Of a stretch of 64,000 bases of DNA, positions 1 to 52,583 are shown piece after piece. The stretch lies in IMG/VR virus record IMGVR_UViG_2778261503_000006; one strand, given 5' to 3'. How positions within the stretch are numbered: the first letter of the stretch is position 1; the number at the start of each line of letters is the position of its first letter. The position numbers and the translations under genes are program-made. A model generated the notes under the pieces. That model saw only the letters and a list, made by a program, of their open reading frames with translations. It was not told where the DNA came from and did not search any database. This stretch comes from a virus. Lineage: Duplodnaviria > Heunggongvirae > Uroviricota > Caudoviricetes.

Positions 1-141
1 GGAGGGTCGGGTAGGCTCTGGCCAGAACAGGATATTGTTCTTTTGTAAAGGCGCGCCCGTCGCACTTTAACCAGCCTGCTGGCGGTGTGGCGGTGGGCCA
101 CGGAACAGGCACACCAACGGGTAGCGCCGAGCCTTCTCCTA
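1..141 (-). CDS. tail-fibre C-terminal cassette, partial (conserved N-terminal segment of a third tandem copy; runs off the left edge)
   Basis: nt 1-152 is a near-identical copy of 441-592 and 912-1062, which encode the conserved first ~47 aa of the two complete cassettes. Confidence 0.35.
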
Positions 142-159
142 AACCAACGTTTCTATGCC
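134..159. other. candidate invertase crossover site (cix/gix-like)
   Basis: TTCTCCTAAACCAACGTTTCTATGCC resembles my recollection of gix (TTCC...AAACC...GTTTT); sits at a cassette junction. Confidence 0.3.
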
Positions 160-581
160 GCCCTTACGATGTAATTAAACGCAATGTTACGGGGACGAAT
201 GGTCACAAAATTAACCCCATCGCCTCGCGAAGGACCTGCAAATGAAAAACGGGAGAATCCAGGGTGGTTGTCAACGATTTGGTCATAGTTATTGATTGCA
301 TGACCAGACCCAATGTCAAAATTACCTGCGTAATGAGAAAAACTTGTACCATCCTGCCGTGAAAGCAGATCGCGCCCTGTATCCACTTTTCGCCCGTCGT
401 CCCATCCACGGATAAACTCACCGCGTAAATCGGGAAGACGGAGGGTCGGGTAGACTCTGGCCAGAACAGGATATTGTTCTTTTGTAAAGGTGCGCCCGTC
501 GCACTTTAACCAGCCTGCTGGCGGTGTGGCAGTGGGCCACGGAACAGGTACACCAACGGGCAGCGCCGAGCCTTCCCCCAA
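153..581 (-). CDS. phage tail-fibre C-terminal variable cassette with tail-collar-type motif; no ATG (the M in the track is a TTG artefact)
   Basis: 142-aa ORF; motif PWPTATPPAGWLKCDGR...YPxL...LPDLRGEFIRGWDDGR typical of phage tail collar domains; shares start and end (RPRNIAFNYIVRAA) with 592..1053 but differs in the middle. Confidence 0.6.
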   Translation of the reverse strand: MGEGSALPVGVPVPWPTATPPAGWLKCDGRTFTKEQYPVLARVYPTLRLPDLRGEFIRGWDDGRKVDTGRDLLSRQDGTSFSHYAGNFDIGSGHAINNYDQIVDNHPGFSRFSFAGPSRGDGVNFVTIRPRNIAFNYIVRAA

Positions 582-598
582 ACCAACGTTTTTATGCC
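395..598. repeat. direct repeat copy 2
   Basis: ccgcgtaaatcgggaagacggagggtcgggtag...aaaccaacgtt repeated; approximate left boundary. Confidence 0.8.
573..598. other. candidate invertase crossover site (cix/gix-like)
   Basis: TTCCCCCAAACCAACGTTTTTATGCC at the junction between the two cassettes. Confidence 0.3.
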
Positions 599-1053
599 GC
601 CCTTACGATATAATTAAAGGCAATATTACGAGGACGGTTTTCATTAGCTGTTGGCACGACACGAGAGGCGTCGAATCCAAGGTCATCGGTTTTGTCTATA
701 GTAGTTGTGTTATTCGGCATTCTCGCTGATCGTGTTCCTGCATCGTAAAAAGCCCCTCTGATTGCATCAAAAGACATACCGATCCCGCCATCTGCGAATC
801 CCTCAATATTTCTTATTGCATCCCCCTGTGAAGATAATAATTGTCGCCCGGCATCCACACCACGTCCGTCATCCCAGCCACGAATAAATTCACCGCGTAA
901 ATCGGGAAGACGGAGGGTCGGGTAGGCTCTGGCCAGAACAGGATATTGTTCTTTTGTAAAGGCGCGCCCGTCGCACTTTAACCAGCCTTCTGGCGGTGTG
1001 GCGGTGGGCCACGGAACCGGTACACCAACAGGCAATGCAGAGCCTTCCCCCAA
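592..1053 (-). CDS. phage tail-fibre C-terminal variable cassette (second variant)
   Basis: 153-aa ORF with the same conserved N-terminal ~60 aa and C-terminal 14 aa as 153..581 and a divergent central segment. Confidence 0.6.
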   Translation of the reverse strand: MGEGSALPVGVPVPWPTATPPEGWLKCDGRAFTKEQYPVLARAYPTLRLPDLRGEFIRGWDDGRGVDAGRQLLSSQGDAIRNIEGFADGGIGMSFDAIRGAFYDAGTRSARMPNNTTTIDKTDDLGFDASRVVPTANENRPRNIAFNYIVRAA

Positions 1054-1068
1054 ACCAACGTTTATCTC
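865..1068. repeat. direct repeat copy 3, adjacent to invertase gene
   Basis: same sequence as copies 1 and 2; approximate left boundary. Confidence 0.8.
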
Positions 1069-1070
1069 TC
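1045..1070. other. candidate invertase crossover site (cix/gix-like)
   Basis: TTCCCCCAAACCAACGTTTATCTCTC, 55 bp upstream of the invertase start. Confidence 0.3.
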
Positions 1071-1124
1071 AAATCCTCCCCACATTATCTCAGTACTTTA
1101 ACCACTCAAAAGGGAGTATTTTTA

Positions 1125-1697
1125 ATGCTGATTGGCTACATACGTGTGTCAACAAATGACCAAAACACAGATTTGCAACGCAATGCATTAATGTGCGCAG
1201 GATGTGAACAGATTTTTGAGGACAAAATGAGCGGAACCAAGTCGGAACGACCAGGCCTGAAACGCGCTTTAAAGTGCCTTAAAAGAGGGGATACATTGGT
1301 GGTCTGGAAGCTGGATCGGTTGGGTAGAAGAATGAAACACCTCATTGCTCTCACAGAAGAGTTACGCGCAAAAGGTGTCAATTTTCGCAGTCTGACGGAT
1401 TCAATCGATACCAGCACTCCGATGGGAAGGTTCTTTTTTCATATGATGGGTGCACTGGCAGAAATGGAGCGTGAACTGATAGTTGAGCGCACGCTGGCAG
1501 GACTGGCTGCTGCGCGAGCACAAGGAAGAGTTGGAGGACGTCGCCCGAAACTGACGAAGGAGCAGCATGAGCAGATCGCAAGATTGCTCCAGAAAGGGTA
1601 TGACAGAAAGCGGCTGGCAATTATCTATGATATTGGACTGTCAACGATCTACCGCTATCACCCTGTTGGGACTGTCATAACGCAACCTGAAATGTAA
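1125..1697 (+). CDS. cin: Cin/Gin/Pin/Hin-family serine DNA invertase
   Basis: 190 aa from ATG 1125 with AAGGGAG RBS; IGYIRVSTNDQ catalytic-Ser block, VVWKLDRLGR, C-terminal HTH; the track's longer ORF from 996 is an upstream extension. Confidence 0.9.
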   Translation: MLIGYIRVSTNDQNTDLQRNALMCAGCEQIFEDKMSGTKSERPGLKRALKCLKRGDTLVVWKLDRLGRRMKHLIALTEELRAKGVNFRSLTDSIDTSTPMGRFFFHMMGALAEMERELIVERTLAGLAAARAQGRVGGRRPKLTKEQHEQIARLLQKGYDRKRLAIIYDIGLSTIYRYHPVGTVITQPEM

Positions 1698-1913
1698 TTC
1701 TTTTTCAAATAATGAAACGCCGCGTGGATGCCATTTATCGCACAAGATAGAGTGCATTTATCGCGCGGCGCATCATCATTTGTTGATATGCGAATGTATC
1801 CAATAAGCATATGTCTCCCTTGTATGCTAAGGATACGATCCTAGAAGATGTCCTGTAAGGAAATAACAAACTGACTAAGTTAGTGGCGCATTAGATGTTA
1901 TTTCTGGAGGGGT

Positions 1914-2240
1914 ATGTTTGCAGATTATGAAAATCTGGCTGTAGTAGTCATAACATCCCTACTAAGTGGAACCGGCGTATTCCTTCTCGGAGTTAGAGAC
2001 GGGCGCATTTCTGCGTCCCTGCTCAATCTTGCGAGTGAATTGTTTACTGCGGTAACAGCCGGGCTTGCGGGGTATGGGGTGGCGGTTAGCCAAGAATGGC
2101 CTGAAGGTATCATTTTCTGCGTTGTTCTGATTGCCAGTAACAACGGTAGTGAAATTTTACAGGGCTTGAAGTCCAGAGCTAGTTACGTCTTGAATCTCTT
2201 AAGCGTAATAGCGAATGGGGGAAAAGGTGGAGAGAAATAA
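1914..2240 (+). CDS. holin-like small membrane protein (LydA-like by position and size)
   Basis: 108 aa with three hydrophobic segments; first gene of the operon after the invertase, as lydA in P1 (synteny from memory). Confidence 0.5.
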   Translation: MFADYENLAVVVITSLLSGTGVFLLGVRDGRISASLLNLASELFTAVTAGLAGYGVAVSQEWPEGIIFCVVLIASNNGSEILQGLKSRASYVLNLLSVIANGGKGGEK

Positions 2241-2686
2241 TGGGTAACTTTGGAAATTATTTCATTTTTATCATGGCATTTGTTGCCATCATTGACCGTT
2301 TCATTTTTCGTCGCAAGAGTGTTGAGATTTTGAGTATTGGTGACGCTGTAGTGAAAGAATCCGCTATAGCATTTCCTGTTTCGCTACGTGTTAAGCGAAG
2401 CTGGGTCAGCAATGCTCAAATCGAATATTGGTTGCAAGACCTGAAAAATCCATCTGTGGTTATTTCAGGGAAAACGCGACCAGTTGACGCCTCAAAACGC
2501 GGTGAGAGAGAAGAGTATTTGCTCATCGATACGAAATATCTTGAGCCAACGAAGTGGGATCTGAAAGTCACATTGACTAACGGTAACTGCCGACTGAATC
2601 CGCTTTATCGCATTTTCCCTATCAATGACTGCATAGAGCGCCAGTTTACGATCGAAAAGCGTAAAGGAGACTGGGATGTCAAATAA
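2240..2686 (+). CDS. hypothetical protein (LydB-like antiholin by position and size)
   Basis: 148 aa, start overlaps the stop of the previous gene; synteny only. Confidence 0.4.
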   Translation: MGNFGNYFIFIMAFVAIIDRFIFRRKSVEILSIGDAVVKESAIAFPVSLRVKRSWVSNAQIEYWLQDLKNPSVVISGKTRPVDASKRGEREEYLLIDTKYLEPTKWDLKVTLTNGNCRLNPLYRIFPINDCIERQFTIEKRKGDWDVK

Positions 2687-3296
2687 GAATAATTATGTTC
2701 TTCTTAATTATGATGAGTTAAACGAAAAGGGGCTGGCAAAACTCGTCAAAGAAATCAGCAAAGGTGGTTACAAGATAGCGAGGGTGATCCCTGCAAGTAA
2801 TGGCAGGAAGAAAGATGGGATCATGACGCGCACGTTTACCCTTATTGGTATTGATGAACAGACAATGGAAGTTCAGGTTAACGATACCGGTGATATATCT
2901 GGGATCAAACTGAATGGTAAAACAGTACCGTTCAAGCCAGTAAAAACAATGTCGGCTTTGGGGCAATCTCTTGCGGCTTTATTTAATCGCGGAGCAACTT
3001 CTTTCCAGAAGTCATTAGCTCGAAAACTTGCTCGTGCAGCAAAAAATATTGATGACGGAAATAAGAAGCGGCAGGGAGTTAAATCTAACGCTCAGAAATT
3101 AGCTGAAGCGAAAGAATCACGTGATGCACTCCGTGAAGATATCGCTAATGCTAACGACAAACTGTCTAAACTCCAGAGCAAGTCAGACAAAGTAATGCAA
3201 GATACGGGTAACGTTAAAGCTGCCTTGTCTCAGGAAGTAGCTAAGACACGTGCTCTTAAAGAAGAAATCGCGCGCCTGGAGGATGAGCATGATTAA
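2676..3296 (+). CDS. Hdf-like protein (shares a module with the following DarA-like protein)
   Basis: 206 aa; central segment resembles a segment of the 3283..5214 product (beta-rich stretch then K/R-rich helical stretch). Confidence 0.45.
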   Translation: MSNKNNYVLLNYDELNEKGLAKLVKEISKGGYKIARVIPASNGRKKDGIMTRTFTLIGIDEQTMEVQVNDTGDISGIKLNGKTVPFKPVKTMSALGQSLAALFNRGATSFQKSLARKLARAAKNIDDGNKKRQGVKSNAQKLAEAKESRDALREDIANANDKLSKLQSKSDKVMQDTGNVKAALSQEVAKTRALKEEIARLEDEHD

Positions 3297-5214
3297 CAAT
3301 CCTTTACGAATTAATATTCAGTCTACTTTTGCTGATACGATCCCCGGCTATGTGCCAAGTCGCTGGTCTTCAGAAGAATTAAGCGAAGATGACCTGATTT
3401 TTGAGGCGGCGACCTTAGAAGATATTGAGCTTGCCTATATGGGCAATGAAATTCTGGTTGTGTCTGACGAAGCTATGTTTGAGTCCATAACTACAACCAG
3501 AATTCGGTTAGCTCAAACAATGCGAGCTTTCGTCCGTGCGCTGAATCGTGGCCTGAATGGTACGAATATTATGGCAGGGACTGATGAAGCCGGGACCGAT
3601 GAAAATGGACGTAATTGTATTGGTGGTGCGATTATCGGTCGTGTACGTCGGGTAGCTAATATCCCTGTTTTGACCGCGCAGATACCGCTTACTGACGGGC
3701 AGAGTACAAGCATAATTTTCCACTCTCCAACAGCTGACGGGGCAAAAATAAAGAGTAACGACGAGCTTGTTGCATTTCAGTTTTTACTTAATAAGCGTAA
3801 CGTAACTCACGTTGTCGCCCCGATTGGTGGGAGAGATGTTTCTTTAAGCCAGGTATGCCAGGCGCTATCTAATTTGATTGAGCGTAACAGCGAAAAATTT
3901 AAGAAAGCAAAAGAGCGCCAGGACAAAATGAAGGCAGATATTGAGAGTTATCTCAATGAAGCAGATAAACTGGCAGAAGAACGGTCAATAATGATTGATC
4001 AGGTGGACGTTGCGCAACGTGGGCTGACTGAAAAGCGTGCTGCTCTTACGGAGATGCAAAAAAAACTTGATGCCCAGAAAGCCATCAACGAGGAATTACA
4101 AGAAAAACGCGATAAATTGTTGTCTGCTAAAGGTGAAAAAACGAAGGAACGAGCGTTTAGTGACCAGCTGCGACATGTAAAACATAATCTTGCCATTGAC
4201 GGAAAAACAGTGCTGGATAATGGCGCTGAAGTTAATTATATCACGTCCGGCAGTGACAATTTCGTTACGATAGTAGCACCTGAAGGTAAATTCAGTATTG
4301 ATGCCAGTGCTGTCAAAGGAGGCAGTTTGGCAGATGCTGCAACCAAATTACTTAAAGCCTACCGAGAGCATAACGCAGATAAATATAAAGTTGATGTGTT
4401 ACCAGGCCAGCAGGAAGACCCCGAACCACCACAGACAGACCCCGAGACGAACCCAGTATCACAACCAGAGAGCCAGGATGTAGGTAAATACCACTATGCA
4501 CTTCAATCTCGCCCGGCTGGTGTTGGTGCTGTGCCGGATGGAAATAAAGCCGTGCTTGATCGTCCTGACCAGGCTGATCAGTATTACGAATATGCTCGTC
4601 ACGGTATCATTACGTATGACCGTAAACTGACAGATGAAGAAGTCAGCCAGTACGAGTTGCTCTATCTTCCTGATGAAGATGAGCTGAAAGATTTTGCAGG
4701 CCAATTGGTTGTGTCCAGCATGTCGAAACATATTGATGGCTATGTAGACCTGTTTGGCAGTGACCTGAAAACATTCAAGGCGCAAGTGAAAATTCTTTTC
4801 CGCAAAGCGTTTCCAAACGTGGCGTATCCACTTGGTGATGGGGAGAACCTTTTCATTATGGACGTGTATAACGCCCTTCAAAATCATTCAAGCGAAGTAA
4901 AAACAGAGCATGTGGTTGAGCCGGAATCACAACCACAACCAGCACCAGAACAGGAGCCGGAGCCAGAAGAAGCTGGTGAATCAGCAAGTGAAGCTGATCA
5001 GGAGGCAGATAAAGCACTGGAGTACCTGAAATCCGTGCCGGAGCAGTTTACATCCCGCGATCTGACGGTCATCAGTGCTGAACTTGATCATGTGCAGGAA
5101 GCAGCAAACGCTCTAATCAGCGCAGGTCGATACGACGAGAACGAAGCCACTGTTGGTGCAGCAGTTGACTACCTGATCAACATTCTGGCTGAAATTCAGC
5201 AGGGAGGTGCTTAA
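3283..5214 (+). CDS. darA: DarA-like antirestriction/head-associated protein
   Basis: 643 aa from ATG 3283 with GGAGGA RBS; size and operon position match P1 DarA as I recall it; acidic Pro/Glu-rich linkers. Confidence 0.5.
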   Translation: MSMINNPLRINIQSTFADTIPGYVPSRWSSEELSEDDLIFEAATLEDIELAYMGNEILVVSDEAMFESITTTRIRLAQTMRAFVRALNRGLNGTNIMAGTDEAGTDENGRNCIGGAIIGRVRRVANIPVLTAQIPLTDGQSTSIIFHSPTADGAKIKSNDELVAFQFLLNKRNVTHVVAPIGGRDVSLSQVCQALSNLIERNSEKFKKAKERQDKMKADIESYLNEADKLAEERSIMIDQVDVAQRGLTEKRAALTEMQKKLDAQKAINEELQEKRDKLLSAKGEKTKERAFSDQLRHVKHNLAIDGKTVLDNGAEVNYITSGSDNFVTIVAPEGKFSIDASAVKGGSLADAATKLLKAYREHNADKYKVDVLPGQQEDPEPPQTDPETNPVSQPESQDVGKYHYALQSRPAGVGAVPDGNKAVLDRPDQADQYYEYARHGIITYDRKLTDEEVSQYELLYLPDEDELKDFAGQLVVSSMSKHIDGYVDLFGSDLKTFKAQVKILFRKAFPNVAYPLGDGENLFIMDVYNALQNHSSEVKTEHVVEPESQPQPAPEQEPEPEEAGESASEADQEADKALEYLKSVPEQFTSRDLTVISAELDHVQEAANALISAGRYDENEATVGAAVDYLINILAEIQQGGA

Positions 5215-5582
5215 TGACCATCTCTGTTTTAGACCGCCTGAAATTAGGTAAAGAGCTATCAGATCTAATGCAGGCGCAGAAAACGGCGCCAGTATTGCAA
5301 CGCGTCACCATTGGTAAGCAGATTGTTGATGTGATGCTGAAATTGGGCTTGGGGACTGCCGCGCAACCGGCAGCGGAACCGCAACAACAGACTGATCCTG
5401 TTGTAGATGAAGTTCCTAAGATAGTGACTGACTTCCTGGGCGGTGTGTTCACAAAGTCCACACAAATGGAATTTATTGATGCGCTGCGTGGGATCTCAAA
5501 CTATGTTGGCGAGTTCCTTACGTTGGAACAGGCAAAAGAGCAGACCATAAGCTGGGTGAAAGCCAACGGTTATGCAGGGTAA
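5214..5582 (+). CDS. small protein (DdrA-like by position)
   Basis: 122 aa, ATGA start/stop overlap with the DarA-like gene. Confidence 0.4.
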   Translation: MTISVLDRLKLGKELSDLMQAQKTAPVLQRVTIGKQIVDVMLKLGLGTAAQPAAEPQQQTDPVVDEVPKIVTDFLGGVFTKSTQMEFIDALRGISNYVGEFLTLEQAKEQTISWVKANGYAG

Positions 5583-5675
5583 TCAAAGGGGCTGAAATGC
5601 CCCTTTCACTTTCCTGTAAGTCCATAAATCACACACTTTTTACACTTCCTGCTTTCTATGTAAGGGGAGTGTATT

Positions 5676-8600
5676 TTGAACAAGTCAGTTACTTCCGCGC
5701 TATCCGAAGCAGCAGACATTAACAGTGTTATTGCGCTGGTTTCTTCATTAGAGAGGCGAGAAACACGCCAGGGGCGCAGTAGTTACGTAGTCACCAGTAA
5801 AGGGGCAGAGGTAAAGACGGCTTTTAAGGTCGTTGATGCCAGCAGTCTGATCATTTCGAACAACCTTGACGGTACGATTAATCCGGCCTTCCCGGAAGAA
5901 CTCCAGCCACGTGACCGTACACGGCTATCAAGCAAACTCCAGGTTAACCGTATTGCCTCCAATTTACGCCCGGCACAATTAACGGATTCCGGCATGAGCA
6001 GCCACGGAGCGCCGATAGTTGGTCCGGACAACGTTGTTGAATCCGGCAACGGAAGGAGCATGGGTATCTGGCGTGCCTATGAGCAAGGGCAGGCGGATGA
6101 ATATCGCCAGTACCTGATCGATCATGCAAAAGAGTTTGGTCTGAATCCTGACGACATTTCACAAATGTCTATGCCCGTATTGGTGCGAGAAAGACTCACA
6201 GATGTAGACCGCGCACAATTTGCCCGCGATTCAAACATCAGCGATCTGCAAGAGATGGCTGCAAGTGAAAAAGCGTATGCGGATGCGCAATTTCTCACTG
6301 AGAGCGTCATGGCGCTATTTAATCCTTCAGATGATGGAAATCTACTGGCGCGGTCCAATGATGCGTTTATTCGTGCGTTTTTGCGCGAAATAGGTGATAC
6401 GGCGACGGCAGGTTTGCTTACTGCCGATGGGCGTCCAACGAAACAACTTATCGACCGCATCCAGAATGCAATTTTTGCCAAAGCGTACAAGGATGAAAGG
6501 CTTGTTCGGCTGGTGGCGGAAGAGCCAGATCCGGAAATGCGTAACATTCTTACCGCATTAAATACGGCAGCCAGCGATTTTGCGCAAATGCAGTCGCTTT
6601 CAGGTGATGTTCACCATGACACGGTAACCGGACTGGTAGACGGTATAGAGCAATTGAATGGTCTGGATAAACAGGCTATTGCCGCGCTACAGGAAGCAAT
6701 TAACCTTGTTCGTGAAGCAAAAGATAACGGTCAGGCAGTAGAAGAGGTGATCGCACAGCGTGGATTGTTTGGAGATAGCACTCCGGAAGCAGAAGCGCTT
6801 GCTCTGTTTATTGTTGCCAACAACCGAAGCGCTAAGCGAATGGGGGCAGCTTTCAAGAAACTGGCGCAAAAAATTAACGATGAACTTATTCACCAGCAAC
6901 AAGCGTTAGGCGATATGTTCGGCGGCGGAGATGTCGATCTGCGTAGCATTTTATCTGCCGTTTCTGATGAAATTGAGGCTGAGTATGGCGAAGGTAAAGG
7001 GCTTAATTTCGCCATGTTTGAATCGGTTTCAGGAGAGGTCGAACCATACATTTCAAAGCTAATTGCTGATGCGACCAGCGTGGAGGACTTGATCCGAATC
7101 GTGAAGGTGTCAGAAAAAATTAAGGAGTCCGCAAAAAAAATAAAGCGCAATGTATTTTTGGAACTTGGTTTTTATATTCGCAATGTCACCGTTAATGAGA
7201 TTAAGGAGTGGGCTAAACGTTATGGATACAGCGACGCTGTGTTAACAACGATGTTATTGTCTTATCAACGCAGCAATTTTTATGCTAACGCACTGCGTGA
7301 CGCGATTGAAAAAGGAGATGAAGCTCCTTCGCTCGCAGATGAAAGAAATATTGATTGTGATATTGAAACGTTTTGCAACATATCAGAAGAAGGCGTGCCC
7401 GCTGAACAATTTATACGTGTTTTACATAATGCAGCAAAACATATTCCTGATGACTTTAGTATTGATGAATTGCGCAATGGTTGTCTTGTTTGGTTAGGTA
7501 ACTATTTAAAATCTCCAGCGTCTATTGCAGAGAAAACAGCTTTAAGATTTAGAAAGGAAATGAATAAAGCTGGAAGCGCAGAAGAGATGGTGTGCATAAT
7601 CCAAAATACTTTGAAGTTATTCAAAAAGAGCTTGCATAATATCGACGATATTATGGCGGCTGGTAGGAAAATAACAGCCAGTGTCGGAGTTAGCTCTGAA
7701 CTAACGGCAGAGGAGATCGCTGATGCGTATATTGAGACACTTGTCAGGCTTAAGGAGATAGTGGAATTAGCAGAGCATTCCTCATATTACGGAATCAAGG
7801 AGCGTGTTGACTTTACTATAGAACAAATCAATAAAGTTAGGTCAAATAAGGAAAAACTCACTGACTACCTTGCTGAGGTTTTGCACCAGAATGATCATGG
7901 GATTGGATATGATCTGAAAAAAATGCTTGTTTTTAATCTGGACATACCGGAAGACTTGCAAGCAGAACTATATGAAATAGCTTCATTAACACGTGGACAA
8001 AAAGCCTATCCTAATGCGCTTGAAAATGTAGTACATAAAAAAGTCAGAGCCGCATTTGACATGATTCTTGAATCGTCAAATGTGTCACATGACCAGTCTA
8101 AGGAATGGAGTCGTGGGATTGCTATTTCTGATGAAGCAGAGCAGTTAAGTGGTCACGATAATGAAACTTTCTCCCGTAAAGCATACAGTATTCGCGAGAC
8201 GATTGAAAAAGCCTATATTATTTCAGGAGGGACTTTATCTACATTAAAAAATATTAACCACAAGAACAATGTTCGTGCTTTTGCAAGTCGAAATGGGAAT
8301 ATAACAATTGATGCTAATAGTGATCACGAGCGTGTATTATGGCATGAAATAGGTCACCATATAGAACATTCAAATCCCCATCTATTGGAGAGGGCCAAAG
8401 CCTTCATTAAATCAAAAACTAACGGTAAAGTTTCTTATCATAATATTGGTAGCCGTGGCAGTGCTGAGTATTTGGTGCGAACCGACCTAAGTCATGGATA
8501 TATGTCTAAAATTTATATGGAAAATACGGTAAGTTCTGTCAGCGGCAGATTTATATCAAAGCCACCTGCATTAAGCAATTGCAGGGCGACTGAGATTTTT

Positions 8601-8717
8601 TCTATGGCCTTGCAGATGTATGCCGATCCGGAGCAGGCGACTAACTCTGTATTAAACAATGACGGCGTGCTGGAATTTTTCTTGGGATGTATGAAGGAGT
8701 TGCAAAATGAAGTATAG
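5676..8717 (+). CDS. large virion-associated protein (DdrB-like by position) with AT-rich C-terminal HExxH metallopeptidase-like module
   Basis: 1013 aa from TTG 5676 with AAGGGGA RBS; GC drops visibly after ~nt 7100; WHEIGHHIEH at nt 8339-8368. Confidence 0.6.
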   Translation: MNKSVTSALSEAADINSVIALVSSLERRETRQGRSSYVVTSKGAEVKTAFKVVDASSLIISNNLDGTINPAFPEELQPRDRTRLSSKLQVNRIASNLRPAQLTDSGMSSHGAPIVGPDNVVESGNGRSMGIWRAYEQGQADEYRQYLIDHAKEFGLNPDDISQMSMPVLVRERLTDVDRAQFARDSNISDLQEMAASEKAYADAQFLTESVMALFNPSDDGNLLARSNDAFIRAFLREIGDTATAGLLTADGRPTKQLIDRIQNAIFAKAYKDERLVRLVAEEPDPEMRNILTALNTAASDFAQMQSLSGDVHHDTVTGLVDGIEQLNGLDKQAIAALQEAINLVREAKDNGQAVEEVIAQRGLFGDSTPEAEALALFIVANNRSAKRMGAAFKKLAQKINDELIHQQQALGDMFGGGDVDLRSILSAVSDEIEAEYGEGKGLNFAMFESVSGEVEPYISKLIADATSVEDLIRIVKVSEKIKESAKKIKRNVFLELGFYIRNVTVNEIKEWAKRYGYSDAVLTTMLLSYQRSNFYANALRDAIEKGDEAPSLADERNIDCDIETFCNISEEGVPAEQFIRVLHNAAKHIPDDFSIDELRNGCLVWLGNYLKSPASIAEKTALRFRKEMNKAGSAEEMVCIIQNTLKLFKKSLHNIDDIMAAGRKITASVGVSSELTAEEIADAYIETLVRLKEIVELAEHSSYYGIKERVDFTIEQINKVRSNKEKLTDYLAEVLHQNDHGIGYDLKKMLVFNLDIPEDLQAELYEIASLTRGQKAYPNALENVVHKKVRAAFDMILESSNVSHDQSKEWSRGIAISDEAEQLSGHDNETFSRKAYSIRETIEKAYIISGGTLSTLKNINHKNNVRAFASRNGNITIDANSDHERVLWHEIGHHIEHSNPHLLERAKAFIKSKTNGKVSYHNIGSRGSAEYLVRTDLSHGYMSKIYMENTVSSVSGRFISKPPALSNCRATEIFSMALQMYADPEQATNSVLNNDGVLEFFLGCMKELQNEV

Positions 8718-9000
8718 CATTGTGAGTCCCGCTGGGATTAGAGGGATTGTTGAATGCTCTGATGACGGCACATTGCGTATATTTGAAGGCGATATTTCGG
8801 AAGAAAATATTGCGCAAGATTTACGCTTTATCAACACAAATTCCGCAATGGGGATCGTGAATACCATTCATGCCGATGGGGTGTTTGTTCTGCGGAGCCT
8901 GGAAACTGTTGGCTGGGAGGTTGAGTGGCCAGAGGTGGAAGGAGATCCTGACGACGAAGACGATACTGGCGAATCATATCAAGACATTGATGTGAATTGA
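8707..9000 (+). CDS. small acidic protein, possible partner of the upstream C-terminal module
   Basis: 97 aa, overlaps the stop of the 1013-aa gene, Asp/Glu-rich C-terminus, followed by a terminator. Confidence 0.5.
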   Translation: MKYSIVSPAGIRGIVECSDDGTLRIFEGDISEENIAQDLRFINTNSAMGIVNTIHADGVFVLRSLETVGWEVEWPEVEGDPDDEDDTGESYQDIDVN

Positions 9001-9013
9001 TATGATTGATAAT

Positions 9014-9036
9014 CCCGCCGTCAGGCGGGTTTTTTT
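9014..9036. terminator. rho-independent terminator (hairpin plus T-run), shared by convergent genes
   Basis: cccgccgtcaggcggg followed by ttttttt. Confidence 0.75.
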
Positions 9037-9298
9037 AGCGTGGTGTAAGAATAAATTCAGGATGCTCTCCAGCAAGCAATAACAGGTACTCAAATTCACC
9101 AGCCATAAGGCGTCTCGGTTTATTTCTATCTTCTTTGAATTGCCAAGCCCGGAGTTGATACCCCATTTTGTGGGCTAACTCCGTTTGCGTTAGCCCCATT
9201 CGCTGGCGGATTTCAATTATAGTTTCCGGGGTGTTTGGTGGGAGTTGTTTCACAATATGCCCTTTGCCAATGCTGTGATTCGCAACGAAGTATATCAT
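9035..9298 (-). CDS. XRE-family helix-turn-helix regulator
   Basis: 87 aa; RQRMGLTQTELAHKMGYQLRAWQFKE HTH signature. Confidence 0.7.
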   Translation of the reverse strand: MIYFVANHSIGKGHIVKQLPPNTPETIIEIRQRMGLTQTELAHKMGYQLRAWQFKEDRNKPRRLMAGEFEYLLLLAGEHPEFILTPR

Positions 9299-9310
9299 CG
9301 TTGAATCGAT

Positions 9311-9613
9311 TCACAGAGCTGCGCCGAATAGACCGCAGCATGGCATCCCTTCATCACAGTACCTGGCCCATTCTTTTTGGCATTCTTCTGTTTGCGCGTA
9401 TTGGCTTAACGCGTCATCCAGCATATCCCAGGCCTTATAGGAATCCTCTGCAACGCTAAACAAAGTCCTGCCTTCCCGGCTTAGAATTTGCAGATTGTAA
9501 ATGTTTTCATTGCTCAGACATGCGCGGCTGATATGCATGTAAACCGACCATGCAGGAACTCGATTTTTGATAGCAAGTTGGTGTAATTTGGAATTAATTA
9601 AAGAGCTTTTCAT
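9311..9613 (-). CDS. hypothetical protein co-transcribed with the downstream HTH gene (possible toxin-like partner)
   Basis: 100 aa from ATG 9613 with GGAGA RBS; 13-bp gap to the HTH gene. Confidence 0.45.
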   Translation of the reverse strand: MKSSLINSKLHQLAIKNRVPAWSVYMHISRACLSNENIYNLQILSREGRTLFSVAEDSYKAWDMLDDALSQYAQTEECQKEWARYCDEGMPCCGLFGAAL

Positions 9614-9796
9614 GGGATTTCTCCGCAGCAAAGTGGTCAACTTTTTCAATCTTAATGCGCACAATGTGCATATTCAAGTTTTATTCTTCACTTTGTTACG
9701 AGAGGGGCCAGCCAATATTTCTAGTTGAAAAGATCCATCATCAAAAATCACATACTGATTATGCTGCCGCAAACTGAAAACATTTCGCGGTGACTC

Positions 9797-11479
9797 ATGG
9801 CAACGAAAGACAAAAACAAAGGCTTTCTGTCGGCATTGAAGAAAGCCTTCAACAGTGGCGATGTCACGCCTGCCGATCCGGTCGTTTTTACGAGCGGTCA
9901 TAGTGTCGTTGCGCGTTCTGGTCTGTCCGCTTTACGTCCGGGGATACTGGGTGGCAATAGCGATGGCATGACAAGCGCGGCAGATACAGTATCAATTTCG
10001 GCAGAACTGCCCGGCGACCGCCTGCAAAAGTACAACATCCTGGAAACGATGGCTAAAAGCCCGACTATCTCGACGGCTTTAAATATTCACATTGCACATG
10101 CGCTTGCGCCTTCAAAAAAAACCGGACAAGCATTCATCCTTTCGCCAAAGGATGGTTCCGATGCCGAGGCAGTAAGTAGATGTGAAGAGTTAACCGCTGA
10201 TTTGGGGACGATGATTAATGACGGACTTCCTTCATGGGCCATGATTATGGCGATCTTTGGGGTGTCTTATGTCCGACCTTATGCTGAACAGGGCAGGGGG
10301 ATAACAGGCATTGAGTCCAGTTATTACACTCTGCCACACTTCGTCCAGGAGTTTTATCGTGGTAGCCAGCTGGTAGGTTTCAGTGGTGATTACATTCTGG
10401 ATACGCATAGTTTGCGCAGAGTAATAACCGAACCGTGGAATCTGGTTTCCATGAAAAATCCCTATTGGACGCCACAGCATAAAGTTATTCCGGTTAGCTA
10501 CGGCACAAAAGGGTACTCACTGTTAAGTGATCAGGCTGATAAGCCGTTAATGGAGACGCAGAATTACGGAACTTCATTCCTGGAATACAGCTATGAACCT
10601 TACCTTAATTTATGTGCTTCGCTCGCCGCGCTGAAATCAACGCGAAATAATGCAGCCAAAATTGACCGCCTGATTGCTCTTACGACGAACACACTGGACC
10701 CGGTTAATGCGGCGAACTATACGCGTGGCGTCAGCCAGGCATTGAAGCGTCATAGTGACCTGGTGGCGCAAAGGTCGATTAATGCCAACGCTATTCCGAC
10801 TGTGCTTAACCATCTGATACCTGTTATGGGAGACGGGAAGAACGGCATCACCATTGATACGCAATCCATACCCGCAGATATCAGTGGTATCGAAGACGTT
10901 ATGTTTCACCTCCGGCAGCTTGCTGCAAGCCTCGGCATTGACGCAACAATGCTTGGCTGGGCTGATCAGATGAGCGGAGGGCTTGGAGAAGGCGGCTGGC
11001 AGCAAACTGCTATCCAGGCTGCATTGCGTGCGAACTGGATCAGACAGGCCGCCCAGCGAACTATTTATCGGCTTCTGGACATTCACCTCGCTTATAAATA
11101 CGGCAAGGTTTACACCGAAACAAACCGCCCTTATGACGTGCAATTCAACTCAATGAACACAGCTATCCAGGAAGAGGAAAACCGAGAACTGGATGCACGC
11201 GCCAACTTTGTTGCTGTCATCTCCCAAATTATGGACCAGATCCAGAACAACCCGAAACTGGCTGGTAGCGACGCGTTTATGCGTTATCTGTTCACTGAGC
11301 AGTTGCACATCGACGATGACACTCTCAACACCATGATCAAAGAGTTTAAGGCGAATGAATCAGAGCAAAACAACGAGCATGGTATGTACGAATCCGCGCC
11401 GTTGTCGTCCGGTGACGATCCGGAAAACTGGACGCCAGAACAGTTAATAAACTTTGCAAAATTTGTGATGAGCAATTAA
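9797..11479 (+). CDS. large structural/morphogenesis protein (portal-like by size and context; not confirmed)
   Basis: 560-aa ORF with strong coding signal; no diagnostic motif recognised. Confidence 0.55.
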   Translation: MATKDKNKGFLSALKKAFNSGDVTPADPVVFTSGHSVVARSGLSALRPGILGGNSDGMTSAADTVSISAELPGDRLQKYNILETMAKSPTISTALNIHIAHALAPSKKTGQAFILSPKDGSDAEAVSRCEELTADLGTMINDGLPSWAMIMAIFGVSYVRPYAEQGRGITGIESSYYTLPHFVQEFYRGSQLVGFSGDYILDTHSLRRVITEPWNLVSMKNPYWTPQHKVIPVSYGTKGYSLLSDQADKPLMETQNYGTSFLEYSYEPYLNLCASLAALKSTRNNAAKIDRLIALTTNTLDPVNAANYTRGVSQALKRHSDLVAQRSINANAIPTVLNHLIPVMGDGKNGITIDTQSIPADISGIEDVMFHLRQLAASLGIDATMLGWADQMSGGLGEGGWQQTAIQAALRANWIRQAAQRTIYRLLDIHLAYKYGKVYTETNRPYDVQFNSMNTAIQEEENRELDARANFVAVISQIMDQIQNNPKLAGSDAFMRYLFTEQLHIDDDTLNTMIKEFKANESEQNNEHGMYESAPLSSGDDPENWTPEQLINFAKFVMSN

Positions 11480-11492
11480 CCGGAGGGAAATA

Positions 11493-12491
11493 ATGCAATC
11501 ACTGAATACTGTTACGGATCGCTTCTCCCTGGTAGAGAAAATCCGCAAACACACACCGCAGAACAACCGAAATTACGTCATTCAGTCGGTACGAGACACA
11601 TTCAACTCGCCAGAAACAAAAGAGCGTATCGCGCTGGGTGAGATGTATGGTTATTACGGTCATGGTCGCCGGGCGATGCACTATAACAAAACGAAAAGCC
11701 TGAACTTGCCGGAAGTCTCTGTTGTGATGGTAGATGGGAAGCCTGTTGTATTGGAGAACGTGCCGTCAAACAGGACTATCGACATTTCGATTGACGACAA
11801 CGGCATTGTTACTCATACGCAGGAAATACTGGATACAGACACCGGGCGTATTGTTCAGGGCATGATTAATTCTGGTGCTGGTGGTTGGTCGTGGGCTACA
11901 TCTGGTCCAGATTCATCGGTATCCCTGGTAAAGTCTTTCCACGGCTTTGATTACGTAACTGTGCCTAACTATATCAGCCTCGACAAGAAAAGCCTGATGC
12001 TTGAATCAGCAGAAGAGCGCGATGCGGCTATTCATGCAGCACTTATCGAACAAGGTTTTACCGATAACGCTGCTACGGATCTGGTTCACCACTTTTCAGC
12101 AATGAAAAATCAGCAAGCCATGCTCGAATCTGCACATCGTGAAGCCCTGGAATCAGAATTGATGCTCCTTGAAGTGGAAAACATACAGCTTCGAGATAAG
12201 CTGCGCGCTCAAACAGCGATGATGGAAAGCCAGGGGGAAAATGCAAAGCAATACCGCCGGATTTTGCGTGAAGCTATCCAGGAAATGCCTGTTTTTATCA
12301 GCGCAGAACAGCGCCGGGCGCTCTGCCGTATGCAGTCTGAAGATGATGCCCGCATAGTGGCTGCGATGCTTGAATCTCTTGGGGCAAATGCTACTTATGG
12401 CTTACCGGTATCAGGCAAGAAAGAACCAGAGTTATCACCGAAGGAGAACAAAAACACTACCCCGTTACTCTTCGTTTCCAGAAGGGGGTAA
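11493..12491 (+). CDS. hypothetical protein with C-terminal coiled coil (head protease/scaffold-like by context; not confirmed)
   Basis: 332 aa, 14 bp downstream of the previous gene. Confidence 0.5.
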   Translation: MQSLNTVTDRFSLVEKIRKHTPQNNRNYVIQSVRDTFNSPETKERIALGEMYGYYGHGRRAMHYNKTKSLNLPEVSVVMVDGKPVVLENVPSNRTIDISIDDNGIVTHTQEILDTDTGRIVQGMINSGAGGWSWATSGPDSSVSLVKSFHGFDYVTVPNYISLDKKSLMLESAEERDAAIHAALIEQGFTDNAATDLVHHFSAMKNQQAMLESAHREALESELMLLEVENIQLRDKLRAQTAMMESQGENAKQYRRILREAIQEMPVFISAEQRRALCRMQSEDDARIVAAMLESLGANATYGLPVSGKKEPELSPKENKNTTPLLFVSRRG

Positions 12492-13738: not shown

Positions 13739-14067
13739 CGGAATGTATGATCTGCATCATCGACTGAAGTCATCCATTGCTGAAATTTTTAGTTGATCTT
13801 CCATGTTTTCAGGCTTATATTCATGCCGTCGTAGCAAATTCTGCGACCGGGTTTGACAGCCTGAATGTTAGTGCGGACAACCGCAGATTTCCGATATTGC
13901 GGTATTTTTGTGTCCGTAAACCGCGTTACGCCCGAATTATGGTGGGGCGTGATGGGGAGGCTTCGGCCTGCTGGTTTCACTAACGCCAGTCTGTCAACCC
14001 TGTCACGTCCTGCCACCTGTTTGACAGCGGGTGGCAGGTTGTTAAACCTGTTAGTGAGGCCGTAACT

Positions 14068-27135: not shown

Positions 27136-27210
27136 GATGGTGTAGCTCAGCGGTAGAGCAGTTGGCTGTTAACCAACTGGTCGGTGGTTCGAATCCACCC
27201 ACCATCGCCA
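27136..27210 (+). tRNA. tRNA-Asn (anticodon GUU)
   Basis: manual cloverleaf: acceptor gatggtg/caccatc, D-arm gctc/gagc, anticodon loop ctGTTaa, T-loop ttcgaat, 3' CCA. Confidence 0.85.
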
Positions 27211-27215
27211 ATTTA

Positions 27216-27302
27216 GGGGAGTTAGTCCGTAGGGGTAGCGGGGTAGACTGTAAATCTACTGTCATTGCGACTCGGGTGGTTCGACTCCATCACTCCCCAC
27301 CA
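27216..27302 (+). tRNA. type II tRNA-like gene, anticodon GUA (Tyr) by manual fold; D-arm non-canonical
   Basis: acceptor ggggagt/actcccc, anticodon stem gtaga/tctac with loop ctGTAaa, long variable arm, T-loop ttcgact, 3' CCA. Confidence 0.55.
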
Positions 27303-27306
27303 AATT

Positions 27307-27382
27307 GCCGGTTTAGCTCAGTTGGTAGAGCAGTCGCTTTGTAAGCGAATGGTCAGCGGTTCGATCCCGTTAACCGGCACCA
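27307..27382 (+). tRNA. tRNA-Thr (anticodon UGU)
   Basis: acceptor gccggtt/aaccggc, D-arm gctc/gagc, anticodon loop ttTGTaa, T-loop ttcgatc, 3' CCA. Confidence 0.8.
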
Positions 27383-27836
27383 ACACAACAGGTAAGAGCA
27401 TTTGTAGAGTTCGACTCTCTACCGTGGGCTTTTTCCCGCGATGCGAGCCATAAATGCTCTTACCGTTGTGATGAAGTGCAGCTCTTTGAAGCAACCAGAA
27501 GATAAGCATCTGGCTTCACAACATAAACCGCAGGAACGACCAATAAACGGTAGTCCGTATGGAGAACACCCCGTTGAGGAAGAGGTCTGGCCGGAACCGT
27601 AACCGGCACTACAACGTTGAGAACACTGGCGTAACGGGGTCATATCCCAATCTACGAATAAATGTTGCGTTGCAGCGTGACAACCAGTGTTCTCAACATT
27701 GTGGTGAATGCGCAGGCTGATGCGCGAAAGACATTGCAGCTATTGCGGAAAAGAGCTGTTCGGCGGGGCAATTAAACGCCCGTGAGAGTCTGAAATAACC
27801 GCAAGCCGGAGATCAGCACCGGTCGCCACAATAACG

Positions 27837-27923
27837 GGAGAGTAGGGAGCATGGTGCTCAAGCGGTCTTGAAAACCGTCCCATTGCGCAAGCGATGATGG
27901 TTCGATTCCATTACTCTCCGCCA
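27837..27923 (+). tRNA. type II tRNA-Ser-like (anticodon UGA); D-arm short
   Basis: acceptor ggagagt/actctcc, anticodon arm gcggt-ctTGAaa-accgt (very like E. coli tRNA-Ser), 17-nt variable arm, T-loop ttcgatt, 3' CCA. Confidence 0.55.
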
Positions 27924-28214
27924 GTGCAACATTAAGGGTATTTGGCTAATTAAGCGAATGCCGGAAGCAGAACCGGATCACCAAATGCGTACAGGCGTCA
28001 TCGCCGCCCAGTCAGCCAAATGCTCTTACCATTGCGGTGAATGCGGCTAAGCGCACGCGGAACAGTTAAAACAGTAAAGGTGGTCTTTTTACTGGCGTAA
28101 CGAGAATCCATAAGTGATCCGGCGTTAATTGTTAACTGGTTAACGTCACCGGGAGGCGCCCGGCACCGCAACCTAACAGCAATGGCGTTTTGTCTTAAAA
28201 GGTGGCTGCAAGTG

Positions 28215-28343
28215 ATGGATTTTTGGGCGTTTGCCGATAAAAACCCGGAGTGGACATTATTGTTTCTGCTGGTGGTTGCATACGGGGTAGAGCAAGCGGC
28301 AAAAGCCTTACGCGGTTCTGGCAAAAAGCGTAAGCGTAATTAA
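28215..28343 (+). CDS. candidate 42-aa small membrane protein (below the track's size cut-off)
   Basis: ATG 28215 preceded by AAGGTGG; hydrophobic core TLLFLLVVAYGV and K/R-rich tail; ends 10 nt before a tRNA. Confidence 0.25.
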   Translation: MDFWAFADKNPEWTLLFLLVVAYGVEQAAKALRGSGKKRKRN

Positions 28344-28352
28344 CAGTAATCT

Positions 28353-28428
28353 GGCCCTTTAGCTCAGTGGTTAGAGCGGGCGACTCATAATCGCACGGTC
28401 ACCGGTTCAAGTCCGGTAGGGGCCACCA
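28353..28428 (+). tRNA. tRNA with anticodon CAU (elongator Met or Ile2/lysidine type)
   Basis: acceptor ggccctt/aggggcc with G1-C72, D-arm gctc/gagc, anticodon loop ctCATaa, T-loop ttcaagt, 3' CCA. Confidence 0.8.
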
Positions 28429-52271: not shown

Positions 52272-52376
52272 AATACTGACTGTTGCGCCCTGGCATTATC
52301 GTGGGGTATATTTCTACGGCACCTTAGAAAAACGGGTGCCGGGATTGAGACCCCGGATAATGCAAAAGGCGACACA

Positions 52377-52398
52377 GACGCCGAAAGCGTCTTTTTTT
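52377..52398 (+). terminator. rho-independent terminator
   Basis: gacgccgaaagcgtc followed by ttttttt. Confidence 0.7.
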
Positions 52399-52447
52399 GT
52401 GTCATGCCATCGCACAGCCATACGTAGCGTATAGCTCCAAGATCAAT

Positions 52448-52523
52448 GGTAGTGCTGGCTGGGCTGCCGAAAGGCAGGCCGGTTCCCTTTTGCGCCGGTA
52501 GTCTCAACCCAGCCAGTGCTACC
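52448..52523 (+). ncRNA. candidate structured antisense-type RNA upstream of the icd-like gene (c4-like by analogy); unverified
   Basis: 16-bp outer stem ggtagtgctggctggg/cccagccagtgctacc enclosing two hairpins. Confidence 0.3.
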
Positions 52524-52583
52524 GCCATTGAGATTGAGACCTCACGCGGTAGCTCCTTAAATTAGCAAAAGGAGGCTGCCAAT

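What the first reader, a model, noticed from the sequence alone, without database searches (positions are those of the whole stretch)
1..1697. Tandem promoterless tail-fibre C-terminal cassettes with 150-200 bp direct repeats beside a Cin-family invertase
Seen: two complete and one edge-truncated cassette on the minus strand, each starting with the same ~47-60 codons (tail-collar-type motif) and ending with the same 14 codons but with different central segments; none has its own ATG. Each cassette junction carries a 26-bp TTCCnnnAAACCnnnGTTTT-like sequence (134-159, 573-598, 1045-1070) resembling invertase crossover sites; the invertase gene starts 55 bp from the third. All three visible sites are in direct orientation, which Gin/Hin-type invertases do not normally recombine, so either inverted partners lie left of the window (a multiple-inversion system) or the cassettes are a silent reservoir.
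Basis: partly seen in the sequence, partly recalled or inferred. Interest (0 to 1): 0.55.

Follow-up and report, generated by a model that had tools for sequence, protein, structure and literature searches.

The report
Multi-inversion tail-fibre tip switch (Min-type)
The left end of this window is the invertase-proximal part of a known kind of DNA "shuffling" switch in a P1-like phage-plasmid of E. coli, in which a serine invertase flips DNA to join one of several stored receptor-binding tail-fibre tips to a constant fibre gene; it is real but ordinary.

Summary
On the minus strand there are three head-to-tail tail-fibre tip cassettes: one cut by the window edge, one of 142 aa and one of 153 aa. 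Each starts at a 26-bp invertase crossover site, next to an intact 190-aa serine invertase. In every related P1-like plasmid the constant part of the fibre gene ends in the same site in the opposite orientation. Near-identical plasmids differ only by inversions bounded by these sites: WCHEC96200 vs WCHEC000837, and Ec-050 T5 vs T20 from one person. pKY1497_2 carries the window's own three-cassette block flipped, with homology ending in site 3. A one-site-per-cassette, inversion-only model gives 2(n-1)! isomers, which is 240 for six sites, the number published for the Min system of plasmid p15B. A plasmid reported as 99% identical to the p15B min region has the same tandem architecture and a 190-aa invertase 84% identical to this one. 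Each cassette is a complete T4 gp37-like tip, which explains the shared start and shared last 14 codons. Verdict: a new member of a known kind, of low interest. The supply of the single flipping chaperone gene remains unexplained.

The parts
1..145 (-). 5' part (48 codons) of a third silent tip cassette, cut by the window edge; most likely the T7 type, which carries the tail-fibre assembly gene behind it
   Evidence: It reads GLGEGSALPVGVPVPWPTATPPAGWLKCDGRAFTKEQYPVLARAYPTL from site 1. Window 1-150 is 99.3% identical to the head of the expressed T7 cassette of L094 and L003, in reverse orientation. Its TTCTCCT half-site is the variant that travels with T7.
134..159 (+). crossover site 1 (TTCTCCTAAACC AA CGTTTCTATGCC)
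   Evidence: the same half-site variant is exchanged in the WCHEC isomer pair
153..584 (-). silent tip cassette of type T9 (143 codons read from the site, stop at 153-155)
   Evidence: Pfam Collar 3.2e-16. It matches the T4 gp37 tip (PDB 2XGF) at E 8e-15, plus the C-terminal NIAFNYIVR. The same cassette is found fused to the constant part in L004 and LL83.
573..598 (+). crossover site 2 (TTCCCCCAAACC AA CGTTTTTATGCC)
592..1056 (-). silent tip cassette of type T8 (154 codons read from the site, stop at 592-594)
   Evidence: Pfam Collar 2.5e-16. The same cassette is fused to the constant part in pKY1497_2 and L099. The identical protein is common in chromosomal P2-like prophages.
1045..1070 (+). 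crossover site 3, the fixed invertase-side end of the invertible region (TTCCCCCAAACC AA CGTTTATCTCTC)
   Evidence: Homology of window 1-1061 to the flipped block of pKY1497_2 ends inside this site. The right half CGTTTATCTCTC is always next to the invertase in relatives.
1125..1697 (+). serine DNA invertase, 190 aa, Ser9 in MLIGYIRVSTNDQ
   Evidence: Resolvase plus HTH_7. It is 84% identical to the invertase of the p15B-min-like region of pMCR_SCKP-LL83 and 73% to P1 Cin. It is 100% identical to the invertase of plasmids that occur as isomers.
1776..1810 (-). remnant of the 5' end of a second invertase gene (pseudo-invertase)
   Evidence: It forms an inverted repeat with 1125-1159, 83% complementary. 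Relatives keep a longer truncated copy at this position.

Best explanation
Window 1-1697 is the invertase-proximal end of a Min-type multiple-inversion region of a P1-family phage-plasmid. Each cassette encodes a complete T4 gp37-like receptor-binding tip: a collar, a variable distal part, and a return strand to the collar. Each cassette is preceded by one 26-bp crossover site that lies in the codons for G-L-G-E-G. The constant 5' part of the tail-fibre gene lies left of the window and ends in the same site in the opposite orientation. The invertase at 1125-1697 pairs two inverted sites and exchanges strands at or next to the central AA. This fuses any minus-strand cassette in frame to the constant part and sends the previously expressed tip into the silent stack. 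Sites of cassettes lying on the same strand are direct repeats and are not recombined. The stack is therefore reshuffled rather than deleted, and n cassettes give 2(n-1)! arrangements. In the arrangement captured here, the three visible cassettes (T8 next to the invertase, then T9, then a T7-like one) are silent, and a further cassette should be the one expressed. What is shown: the anatomy, the inverted site in relatives, isomers bounded by the sites, and half-site exchange. What is inferred: the sequence left of this window, dependence on Fis and an enhancer, and a change of host range.
For: Context is a P1-like plasmid. Neighbours are the transglycosylase (P1 sit-like), baseplate, R, the tail fibre, Tfa, the invertase, then lydA/lydB, darA, ddrB, portal, pro and repL, with C4 RNA and tRNAs further on. 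The inverted site at the end of the constant part is seen in every complete relative. Isomers: WCHEC96200 vs WCHEC000837 have collinear flanks at 99.4-99.6% and a 1,623-bp segment between two sites inverted at 99.88%. Ec-050 T5-ESBL vs T20 come from the same person and are both 89,996 bp; a 1,932-bp segment is inverted between two sites and each flank differs by one mismatch. Three of the four predicted arrangements of the set {T7,T4,T9} are seen among loci with a 99-100% identical invertase. In each pair the left half-site moves with the cassette and the right half stays, which places the exchange within positions 8-14 of the 26-mer. pKY1497_2 carries T8-T9-T7 on the plus strand; window 1-1061 is its reverse complement at 97.5%, and the match ends in site 3. 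The model gives 240 isomers for 6 sites, equal to the published number for p15B Min (PMC2481393). pMCR_SCKP-LL83, reported as 99% identical to the p15B min region (PMC5786510), has 9 such sites, 7 of them in tandem, and a 190-aa invertase. P1 cix sites share the half-site and the AA core.
Against: The constant part and its site are not in the window, and the source record was not found. The nearest backbone, L094, is 99.97% identical over window 1101-12000 but has a different cassette set. No read-level data exist for this genome. The Fis enhancer could not be shown. The right halves of the internal sites keep only AAAC(G) of the half-site consensus. The single Tfa gene would be antisense to the fibre operon in this arrangement.
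Confidence: 0.88

Rival explanations
1. The system is a frozen relic. The cassettes and sites are left over from a once-active system, and in this plasmid they no longer invert because of a weak site, a missing enhancer, or a lost or damaged constant-part site.
For: Nothing in the window itself proves activity. Site 1 differs at 2 of 19 positions from sites 2 and 3. The second invertase copy has decayed. Some relatives have frameshifted cassettes (L087; L009).
Against: The invertase ORF is intact and 100% identical to that of plasmids found as isomers. The TTCTCCT variant of site 1 is itself exchanged in those isomers. All three cassettes are open to their conserved stop.
Confidence: 0.06
2. 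The cassettes are a reservoir used mainly by homologous recombination. The roughly 200-bp shared heads and the shared tails would serve RecA-dependent exchange or gene conversion, as in pilin-type antigenic variation, rather than invertase action.
For: Heads within one locus are more alike than heads of different tip types between loci (0.89 vs 0.80). Cassette content differs between backbones that are 99.97% identical. The same cassettes occur in P2-like chromosomal prophages. Homologous exchange therefore clearly happens over evolutionary time.
Against: The isomer pairs differ by clean inversions whose ends fall inside the 26-bp sites, with reciprocal half-site exchange. Homologous recombination between direct repeats would delete or convert, not invert. 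This process explains cassette turnover, not the switching.
Confidence: 0.04
3. The tandem array is an assembly artefact, with the 200-bp repeats collapsed or mis-joined.
For: Many short-read contigs of relatives end 50-140 bp upstream of the invertase, inside the repeat.
Against: The same T7-T9-T8 block is present, flipped, in an independent complete plasmid. Tandem stacks of 2-9 sites are seen in 26 complete loci.
Confidence: 0.02

Closest known systems
Min multiple DNA inversion system of plasmid p15B (E. coli 15T-)
   Same: The host is a P1-related plasmid prophage. A 190-aa serine invertase is transcribed away from the invertible region. Several crossover sites each sit at the 5' end of a promoterless 3' gene segment that can be fused to one constant 5' part. 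Silent segments lie in tandem. The constant part is built of repeats. A truncated second invertase lies next to the invertase gene. The isomer count of my model equals the published 240 for six sites.
   Different: The invertase is only 84% identical to that of the p15B-min-like region of pMCR_SCKP-LL83. The invertase-side flank of the end site differs (CGTTTATCTCTC vs CGTTTTAGTCTT). The cassette heads belong to a different sequence family (TATPPAGWLKCDGR.. vs SATPPTGWLKCNGA..). This lineage has fewer cassettes, mostly 3-4 against 6 in p15B and 9 in LL83. The pseudo-invertase is reduced to 35 nt. I could not read the original p15B sequence or papers.
Cin / C segment of phage P1 (and Gin / G segment of Mu)
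   Same: The same enzyme family, at 73% identity. The same half-site and AA core, as in P1 TTCTCTTAAACC AA GG.... The same logic of fusing a constant fibre 5' part to alternative 3' parts, and the same genome neighbourhood.
   Different: P1 has two sites and one invertible segment with two large alternatives of about 500 codons. Each alternative has its own assembly gene (U, U'). In P1, cin lies on the other side of the lyd genes and is read towards the segment. Here there are at least three sites, tips of about 145-170 codons, one assembly gene per stack, and the invertase is read away from the stack.
R64 / IncI shufflon (Rci, pilV)
   Same: Multiple overlapping inversions that select one of several 3' ends for a constant 5' gene part (PMC2481393).
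   Different: The shufflon uses a tyrosine recombinase and different sites, and the gene is a pilus adhesin rather than a phage fibre. The resemblance is functional only, not homology.
T4 gp37 distal tail-fibre tip (PDB 2XGF)
   Same: The cassette aligns to the collar region at E 8e-15, and its last 13 residues align to the gp37 C terminus (PRNIAFNYIVRAA vs VKNIAFNYIVRLA). [quoted passage not shown] This explains why both ends of every cassette are conserved and the middle varies.
   Different: The cassettes are much shorter, at 142-171 aa against about 215. The two cassettes in the window lack the HxH iron-binding motifs that other cassette types of this family have. No structure was predicted here.
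Invertible tail-fibre modules of chromosomal P2-like prophages of E. coli
   Same: The identical invertase protein (WP_000904922.1), the T4/T7/T9 cassettes and TfaA sit beside aroA in strain AR_0055. The window's T8 protein is found mostly on such prophages, again in two arrangements.
   Different: The phage backbone (P2-like) and the constant fibre part (P2 gpH-like) are different. This shows the module moves between phage types.

Membership tests
Gin/Hin/Cin/Pin/Min ('Din') serine DNA invertases | Small (about 185-190 aa) serine recombinase with an N-terminal catalytic domain carrying the Ser nucleophile near residue 9-10 and a C-terminal helix-turn-helix | tested here: met
   PF00239 at 8e-51 over residues 3-135 and PF02796 at 1e-12 over residues 138-180. 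MLIGYIRVSTNDQ aligns with P1 Cin MLIGYVRVSTNEQ. Identity to Cin is 73%.
Gin/Hin/Cin/Pin/Min ('Din') serine DNA invertases | 26-bp crossover sites made of two 12-bp half-sites around a 2-bp core, with exchange at the core | tested here: met
   The sites share TTCYCCYAAACC AA with the P1 cix sites. In isomer pairs the left half moves and the right half stays, which places the exchange in positions 8-14. The right halves of internal sites are degenerate.
Gin/Hin/Cin/Pin/Min ('Din') serine DNA invertases | Recombines inverted sites only; direct repeats are not resolved | tested here: inconclusive
   All observed differences between near-identical relatives are inversions between inverted sites. 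The inversion-only model reproduces the published isomer number. Rare deletions cannot be excluded from static assemblies.
Gin/Hin/Cin/Pin/Min ('Din') serine DNA invertases | Fis-dependent recombinational enhancer in cis, usually inside the 5' part of the invertase gene | tested here: inconclusive
   Synonymous variation dips at codons 21-35 (0.13 against a mean of 0.26) but not sharply. Only one strict Fis-consensus match was found, at 1195-1209. This needs an experiment.
Min-type multiple inversion region (p15B) | More than two crossover sites, each at the 5' end of a promoterless variable 3' segment of one tail-fibre gene | tested here: met
   There are three sites and cassettes in the window. 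Complete relatives have 2-9 sites per locus, most often 3.
Min-type multiple inversion region (p15B) | A constant 5' gene part outside the region that ends in an inverted site | not testable with these tools
   This part lies left of the window and the source record was not found. The feature is met in every complete relative.
Min-type multiple inversion region (p15B) | Carried by a P1-related plasmid prophage, with the invertase gene adjacent to the region | tested here: met
Min-type multiple inversion region (p15B) | Sequence identity with the Min invertase of p15B | tested here: inconclusive
   Identity is 84% to the invertase of pMCR_SCKP-LL83, whose region is reported as 99% identical to p15B min. 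The p15B record itself (X62121) was not available. At 84% this is a related allele, not Min itself.

The most novel reading that the evidence does not exclude
Each stack of 3-9 gp37-like tips has only one tail-fibre assembly (Tfa) gene. It is attached behind one cassette and flips with it. In about half of the arrangements, including by inference the one in this window, it lies antisense to the late fibre operon. If these tips need that chaperone, as T4 gp37 needs gp38 or Tfa, the inversion system would switch fibre assembly on and off as well as switching specificity. Alternatively, the conserved C-terminal strand may make these short tips independent of a chaperone. Neither possibility has been described for Min-type systems, as far as I could find.
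Probability: 0.15. Interest if true: 0.5.

Novelty: new member of a known kind. Interest (0 to 1): 0.25.

Why it matters
P1-like phage-plasmids are common in E. coli and often carry resistance genes. Their host range as transducing particles depends on which tip is fused to the fibre gene. This analysis gives a simple rule (one site per cassette, inversions only, 2(n-1)! arrangements) and a catalogue of about 27 collar-type tip families from about 100 loci. Both help in annotating these loci correctly: RefSeq calls the cassettes 'phage tail protein' or pseudogenes 'missing N-terminus'. They also help in understanding why assemblies break at this locus and in choosing tips for fibre engineering. 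The work does not open a new biological question.

Tried and rejected
A 19-mer search with up to 3 mismatches found no inverted site in three relatives. The cause was the different right half of the constant-part site (GGTAATTGAGGA). Reading the protein junction fixed this. I looked for an enhancer through synonymous-site conservation over 33 distinct invertase genes and through Fis consensus scans; both were inconclusive. A promoter and terminator scan of 1-2300 found nothing relevant and no terminator inside the cassettes. I tried to find the source record or an identical arrangement with BLAST against plasmids, phages and E. coli genomes and with exact-protein look-ups. The closest backbone, L094 at 99.97%, has another cassette set, and the exact T7-T9-T8-invertase order was seen only flipped, in pKY1497_2. 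The original p15B papers (PMC329034, PMC206102, PMC53420) are not held, so details such as the pseudo-pin gene rest on my memory of the abstract of Nucleic Acids Res 19:5831. I did not run a structure prediction, because the sequence match to 2XGF at both ends was enough for the point made. The idea that the three direct sites are a problem for an invertase was rejected, since that is the expected layout.

Full report
**Observation**

The sequence is as described. Window 1-1108 holds a 197-nt direct-repeat family (1-197, 440-636, 912-1108) and a 219-nt pair (373-591, 845-1063). Three copies of a 26-bp sequence lie at 134-159, 573-598 and 1045-1070, all on the same strand. The 19-nt core occurs 3 times in 64 kb where 0.02 are expected by chance.

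Read on the minus strand from each site, the frames are GLGEGSALPVGVPVPWP...: a 143-codon cassette (stop at 153-155), a 154-codon cassette (stop at 592-594), and a third cut by the window edge. I call these types T9 and T8, and the truncated one T7-like. Both complete cassettes match Pfam Collar, share about 72-75 head codons, and share the last 14 codons RPRNIAFNYIVRAA. Neither has an ATG at its head.

The gene at 1125-1697 encodes an intact 190-aa serine recombinase with a C-terminal HTH.

**Context**

The window is part of a P1-family phage-plasmid of E. coli. Close relatives of 92-96 kb, up to 99.97% identical over 10.9 kb, show this order: transglycosylase, baseplate, R, tail fibre, tail-fibre assembly gene, cassettes, invertase, holin/LydB, DarA, DdrB, portal, protease, RepL. 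The window also carries C4 antisense RNAs and a tRNA cluster.

**The missing partner site**

In every relative with a complete locus the expressed fibre gene reads ...IKDVLNYLGLGEGSALPVGVPVPWP.... The junction DNA is TCAATTACCTTGGTTTAGGAGAA, the reverse complement of TTCTCCTAAACC AA GGTAATTGA. This is the same left half-site and AA core as the cassette sites, in the opposite orientation. My first search missed it because its right half differs. All silent minus-strand cassettes are therefore inverted relative to this site. That is why the three sites in the window are direct repeats of each other.

**Evidence that the sites are used**

- Plasmids p1_000200 (WCHEC96200) and p1_000837 (WCHEC000837) are both 92,538 bp and come from the same hospital. 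They are collinear at 99.4-99.6% on both sides and differ by a 1,623-bp segment inverted at 99.88%, running from site to site.
- Plasmids from stool isolates of one person (Ec-050 T5-ESBL vs T20-MAC and T20-ESBL) are all 89,996 bp. They differ by a 1,932-bp inversion between two sites, with one mismatch in each flank.
- Among loci with a 99-100% identical invertase, the cassette set {T7,T4,T9} is seen as +T7 -T4 -T9 (L003, L005, L011, L012, L094), +T4 -T7 -T9 (L001, L091) and +T9 +T7 -T4 (L004).
- In each comparison the left half-site (TTCTCCT or TTCCCCC) travels with its cassette. The right half stays in place: GGTAATTGAGGA at the constant part, CGTTTATCTCTC at the invertase, CGTTTCTATGCC after a cassette stop. 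The exchange therefore lies within positions 8-14 of the 26-mer, which include the core.
- For the window itself, pKY1497_2 has the constant part fused to T8, followed by T9, T7 and the assembly gene on the plus strand, with one minus-strand cassette before the invertase. Window 1-1061 is the reverse complement of that block at 97.5%, and the match ends inside site 3.
- Window 1-150 is 99.3% identical to the head of the expressed T7 cassette of L094, so the truncated cassette is most likely T7.

**Model**

If each cassette has one site at its 5' end and only inverted sites recombine, a breadth-first enumeration gives 2, 4, 12, 48, 240 and 1440 arrangements for 2 to 7 cassettes. The first cassette is always fused and the last is always antisense. 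The value for six sites, 240, is the number published for the Min system of p15B (PMC2481393). The arrangement in the window (-T7 -T9 -T8 next to the invertase) can be reached from the order seen in L098 by four inversions. It is one inversion away from a pKY1497_2-like order.

**Comparison with known systems**

pMCR_SCKP-LL83 has an invertible region reported as 99% identical to the p15B min region (PMC5786510). It contains nine such sites, seven in tandem on one strand and two on the other. It has one Tfa gene and a 190-aa invertase 84% identical to the window's.

P1 Cin is 73% identical. The two P1 cix sites share TTCTCTTAAACC AA, but P1 has only two sites and two large alternatives, each with its own assembly gene, and cin is placed differently.

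A truncated second invertase lies after the invertase in relatives and survives as 35 nt in the window. The constant part of the fibre gene is made of 300-bp tandem repeats in relatives. As I recall, both traits were also described for p15B (Nucleic Acids Res 19:5831, not readable here). The system is thus Min-type in architecture, with a diverged invertase allele and a different cassette repertoire.

**Why both ends of each cassette are conserved**

The cassette matches the T4 gp37 tip (PDB 2XGF) in the collar region (E 8e-15) and again in its last 13 residues. In gp37 the chain runs from the collar to the head domain and doubles back to the collar (PMC12609058; PMC9659904). A cassette is therefore a whole tip: the shared head and tail form the collar that docks on the constant shaft, and the variable middle is the receptor-binding end.

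Across about 100 loci I found 150 distinct cassette peptides in 32 types, 27 of them collar-type and many with HxH motifs like the gp37 needle.

**Open points**

- The region left of the window was not seen, and the source record was not found.
- The Fis enhancer expected for this enzyme family could not be demonstrated by sequence.
- There is only one Tfa gene per stack. It flips with its cassette, so in the arrangement inferred here it is antisense to the fibre operon, and no leftward sigma-70-like promoter was found.
- Cassette content differs between backbones that are 99.97% identical. The same invertase and cassettes occur in chromosomal P2-like prophages. Homologous exchange through the shared heads therefore also shapes these loci.

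**Verdict**

This is a further member of the Min-type multiple-inversion tail-fibre systems known since 1990. It is common in E. coli: the exact invertase protein is recorded on the look-up's maximum of 1000 contigs, and matches to the cassette region occur in 1,608 of 5,426 complete genomes. Interest is low.

Noticed in passing
window 1776-1810 (minus strand), with 1698-1913 as its surroundings: A 35-nt inverted copy of the invertase 5' end, the remnant of a second invertase gene. Relatives p98222 and pMCR_SCKP-LL83 keep a longer truncated copy at the same place; the window has an internal deletion relative to them.
   Followed up: partly
L091 (E. coli AR_0055 chromosome, beside aroA/serC); L106-L115: The identical invertase protein (WP_000904922.1), the T4/T7/T9 cassettes and TfaA sit in a chromosomal P2-like prophage. 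The window's T8 protein is found mostly on such prophages, in two arrangements (L106 vs L107). The module moves between P2-like and P1-like elements.
   Followed up: partly
L093-L102 (contigs encoding the identical 641-aa DarA of window 3289-5214): Backbones with the same DarA protein carry one of three fibre modules: a Min-type module (190-aa invertase), a P1 Cin-type module (186-aa invertase on the other strand, Gp34_trimer/gp37_C fibres), or a long fibre gene with no invertase. The tail-fibre and invertase block is a swappable unit.
   Followed up: no
L094 vs window 1-12000: L094 is 99.97% identical to window 1101-12000 (3 mismatches in 10.9 kb), yet its cassette set is {T7,T4,T9} and lacks T8. 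Cassette content changes faster than point mutations accumulate.
   Followed up: partly
L003 5835-7378 (pB2C_96), and the fibre genes of L001, L002 and L094: The constant part of the fibre gene is a 300-bp tandem repeat, with 5.1 copies at 99% identity. Copy number varies between plasmids, giving fibres of 528 to 929 aa, so fibre length varies as well as the tip.
   Followed up: no
all collar-cassette loci, e.g. L001, L098, WCHEC000837: There is only one TfaA/TfaC-class assembly gene per stack of 3-9 tips. It flips with one cassette and is antisense to the fibre operon in many arrangements.
   Followed up: partly
window 13815-14020 and 52319-52529: There are two C4 antisense RNA loci. The first has its a1/b1 target element; the second lies next to an isrK-like sRNA. 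This suggests two immunity-I-type regions in one element.
   Followed up: no
window 27136-28428: A cluster of five tRNA genes (Asn, Tyr, Thr, Ser, Met).
   Followed up: no
L007, L013, L014, L017, L102 (contig ends): Many short-read contigs of relatives end 50-140 bp upstream of the invertase, inside the shared cassette head. The locus is a systematic assembly break point.
   Followed up: no
L010 6898-10570: One IMG/VR contig has the cassette stack flanked by invertase genes on both sides: an 86%-identical 184-aa type on the left and the 190-aa type on the right. No constant fibre part lies next to it, and the left end site has a different flank (CGTTTTCGTTTT).
   Followed up: no
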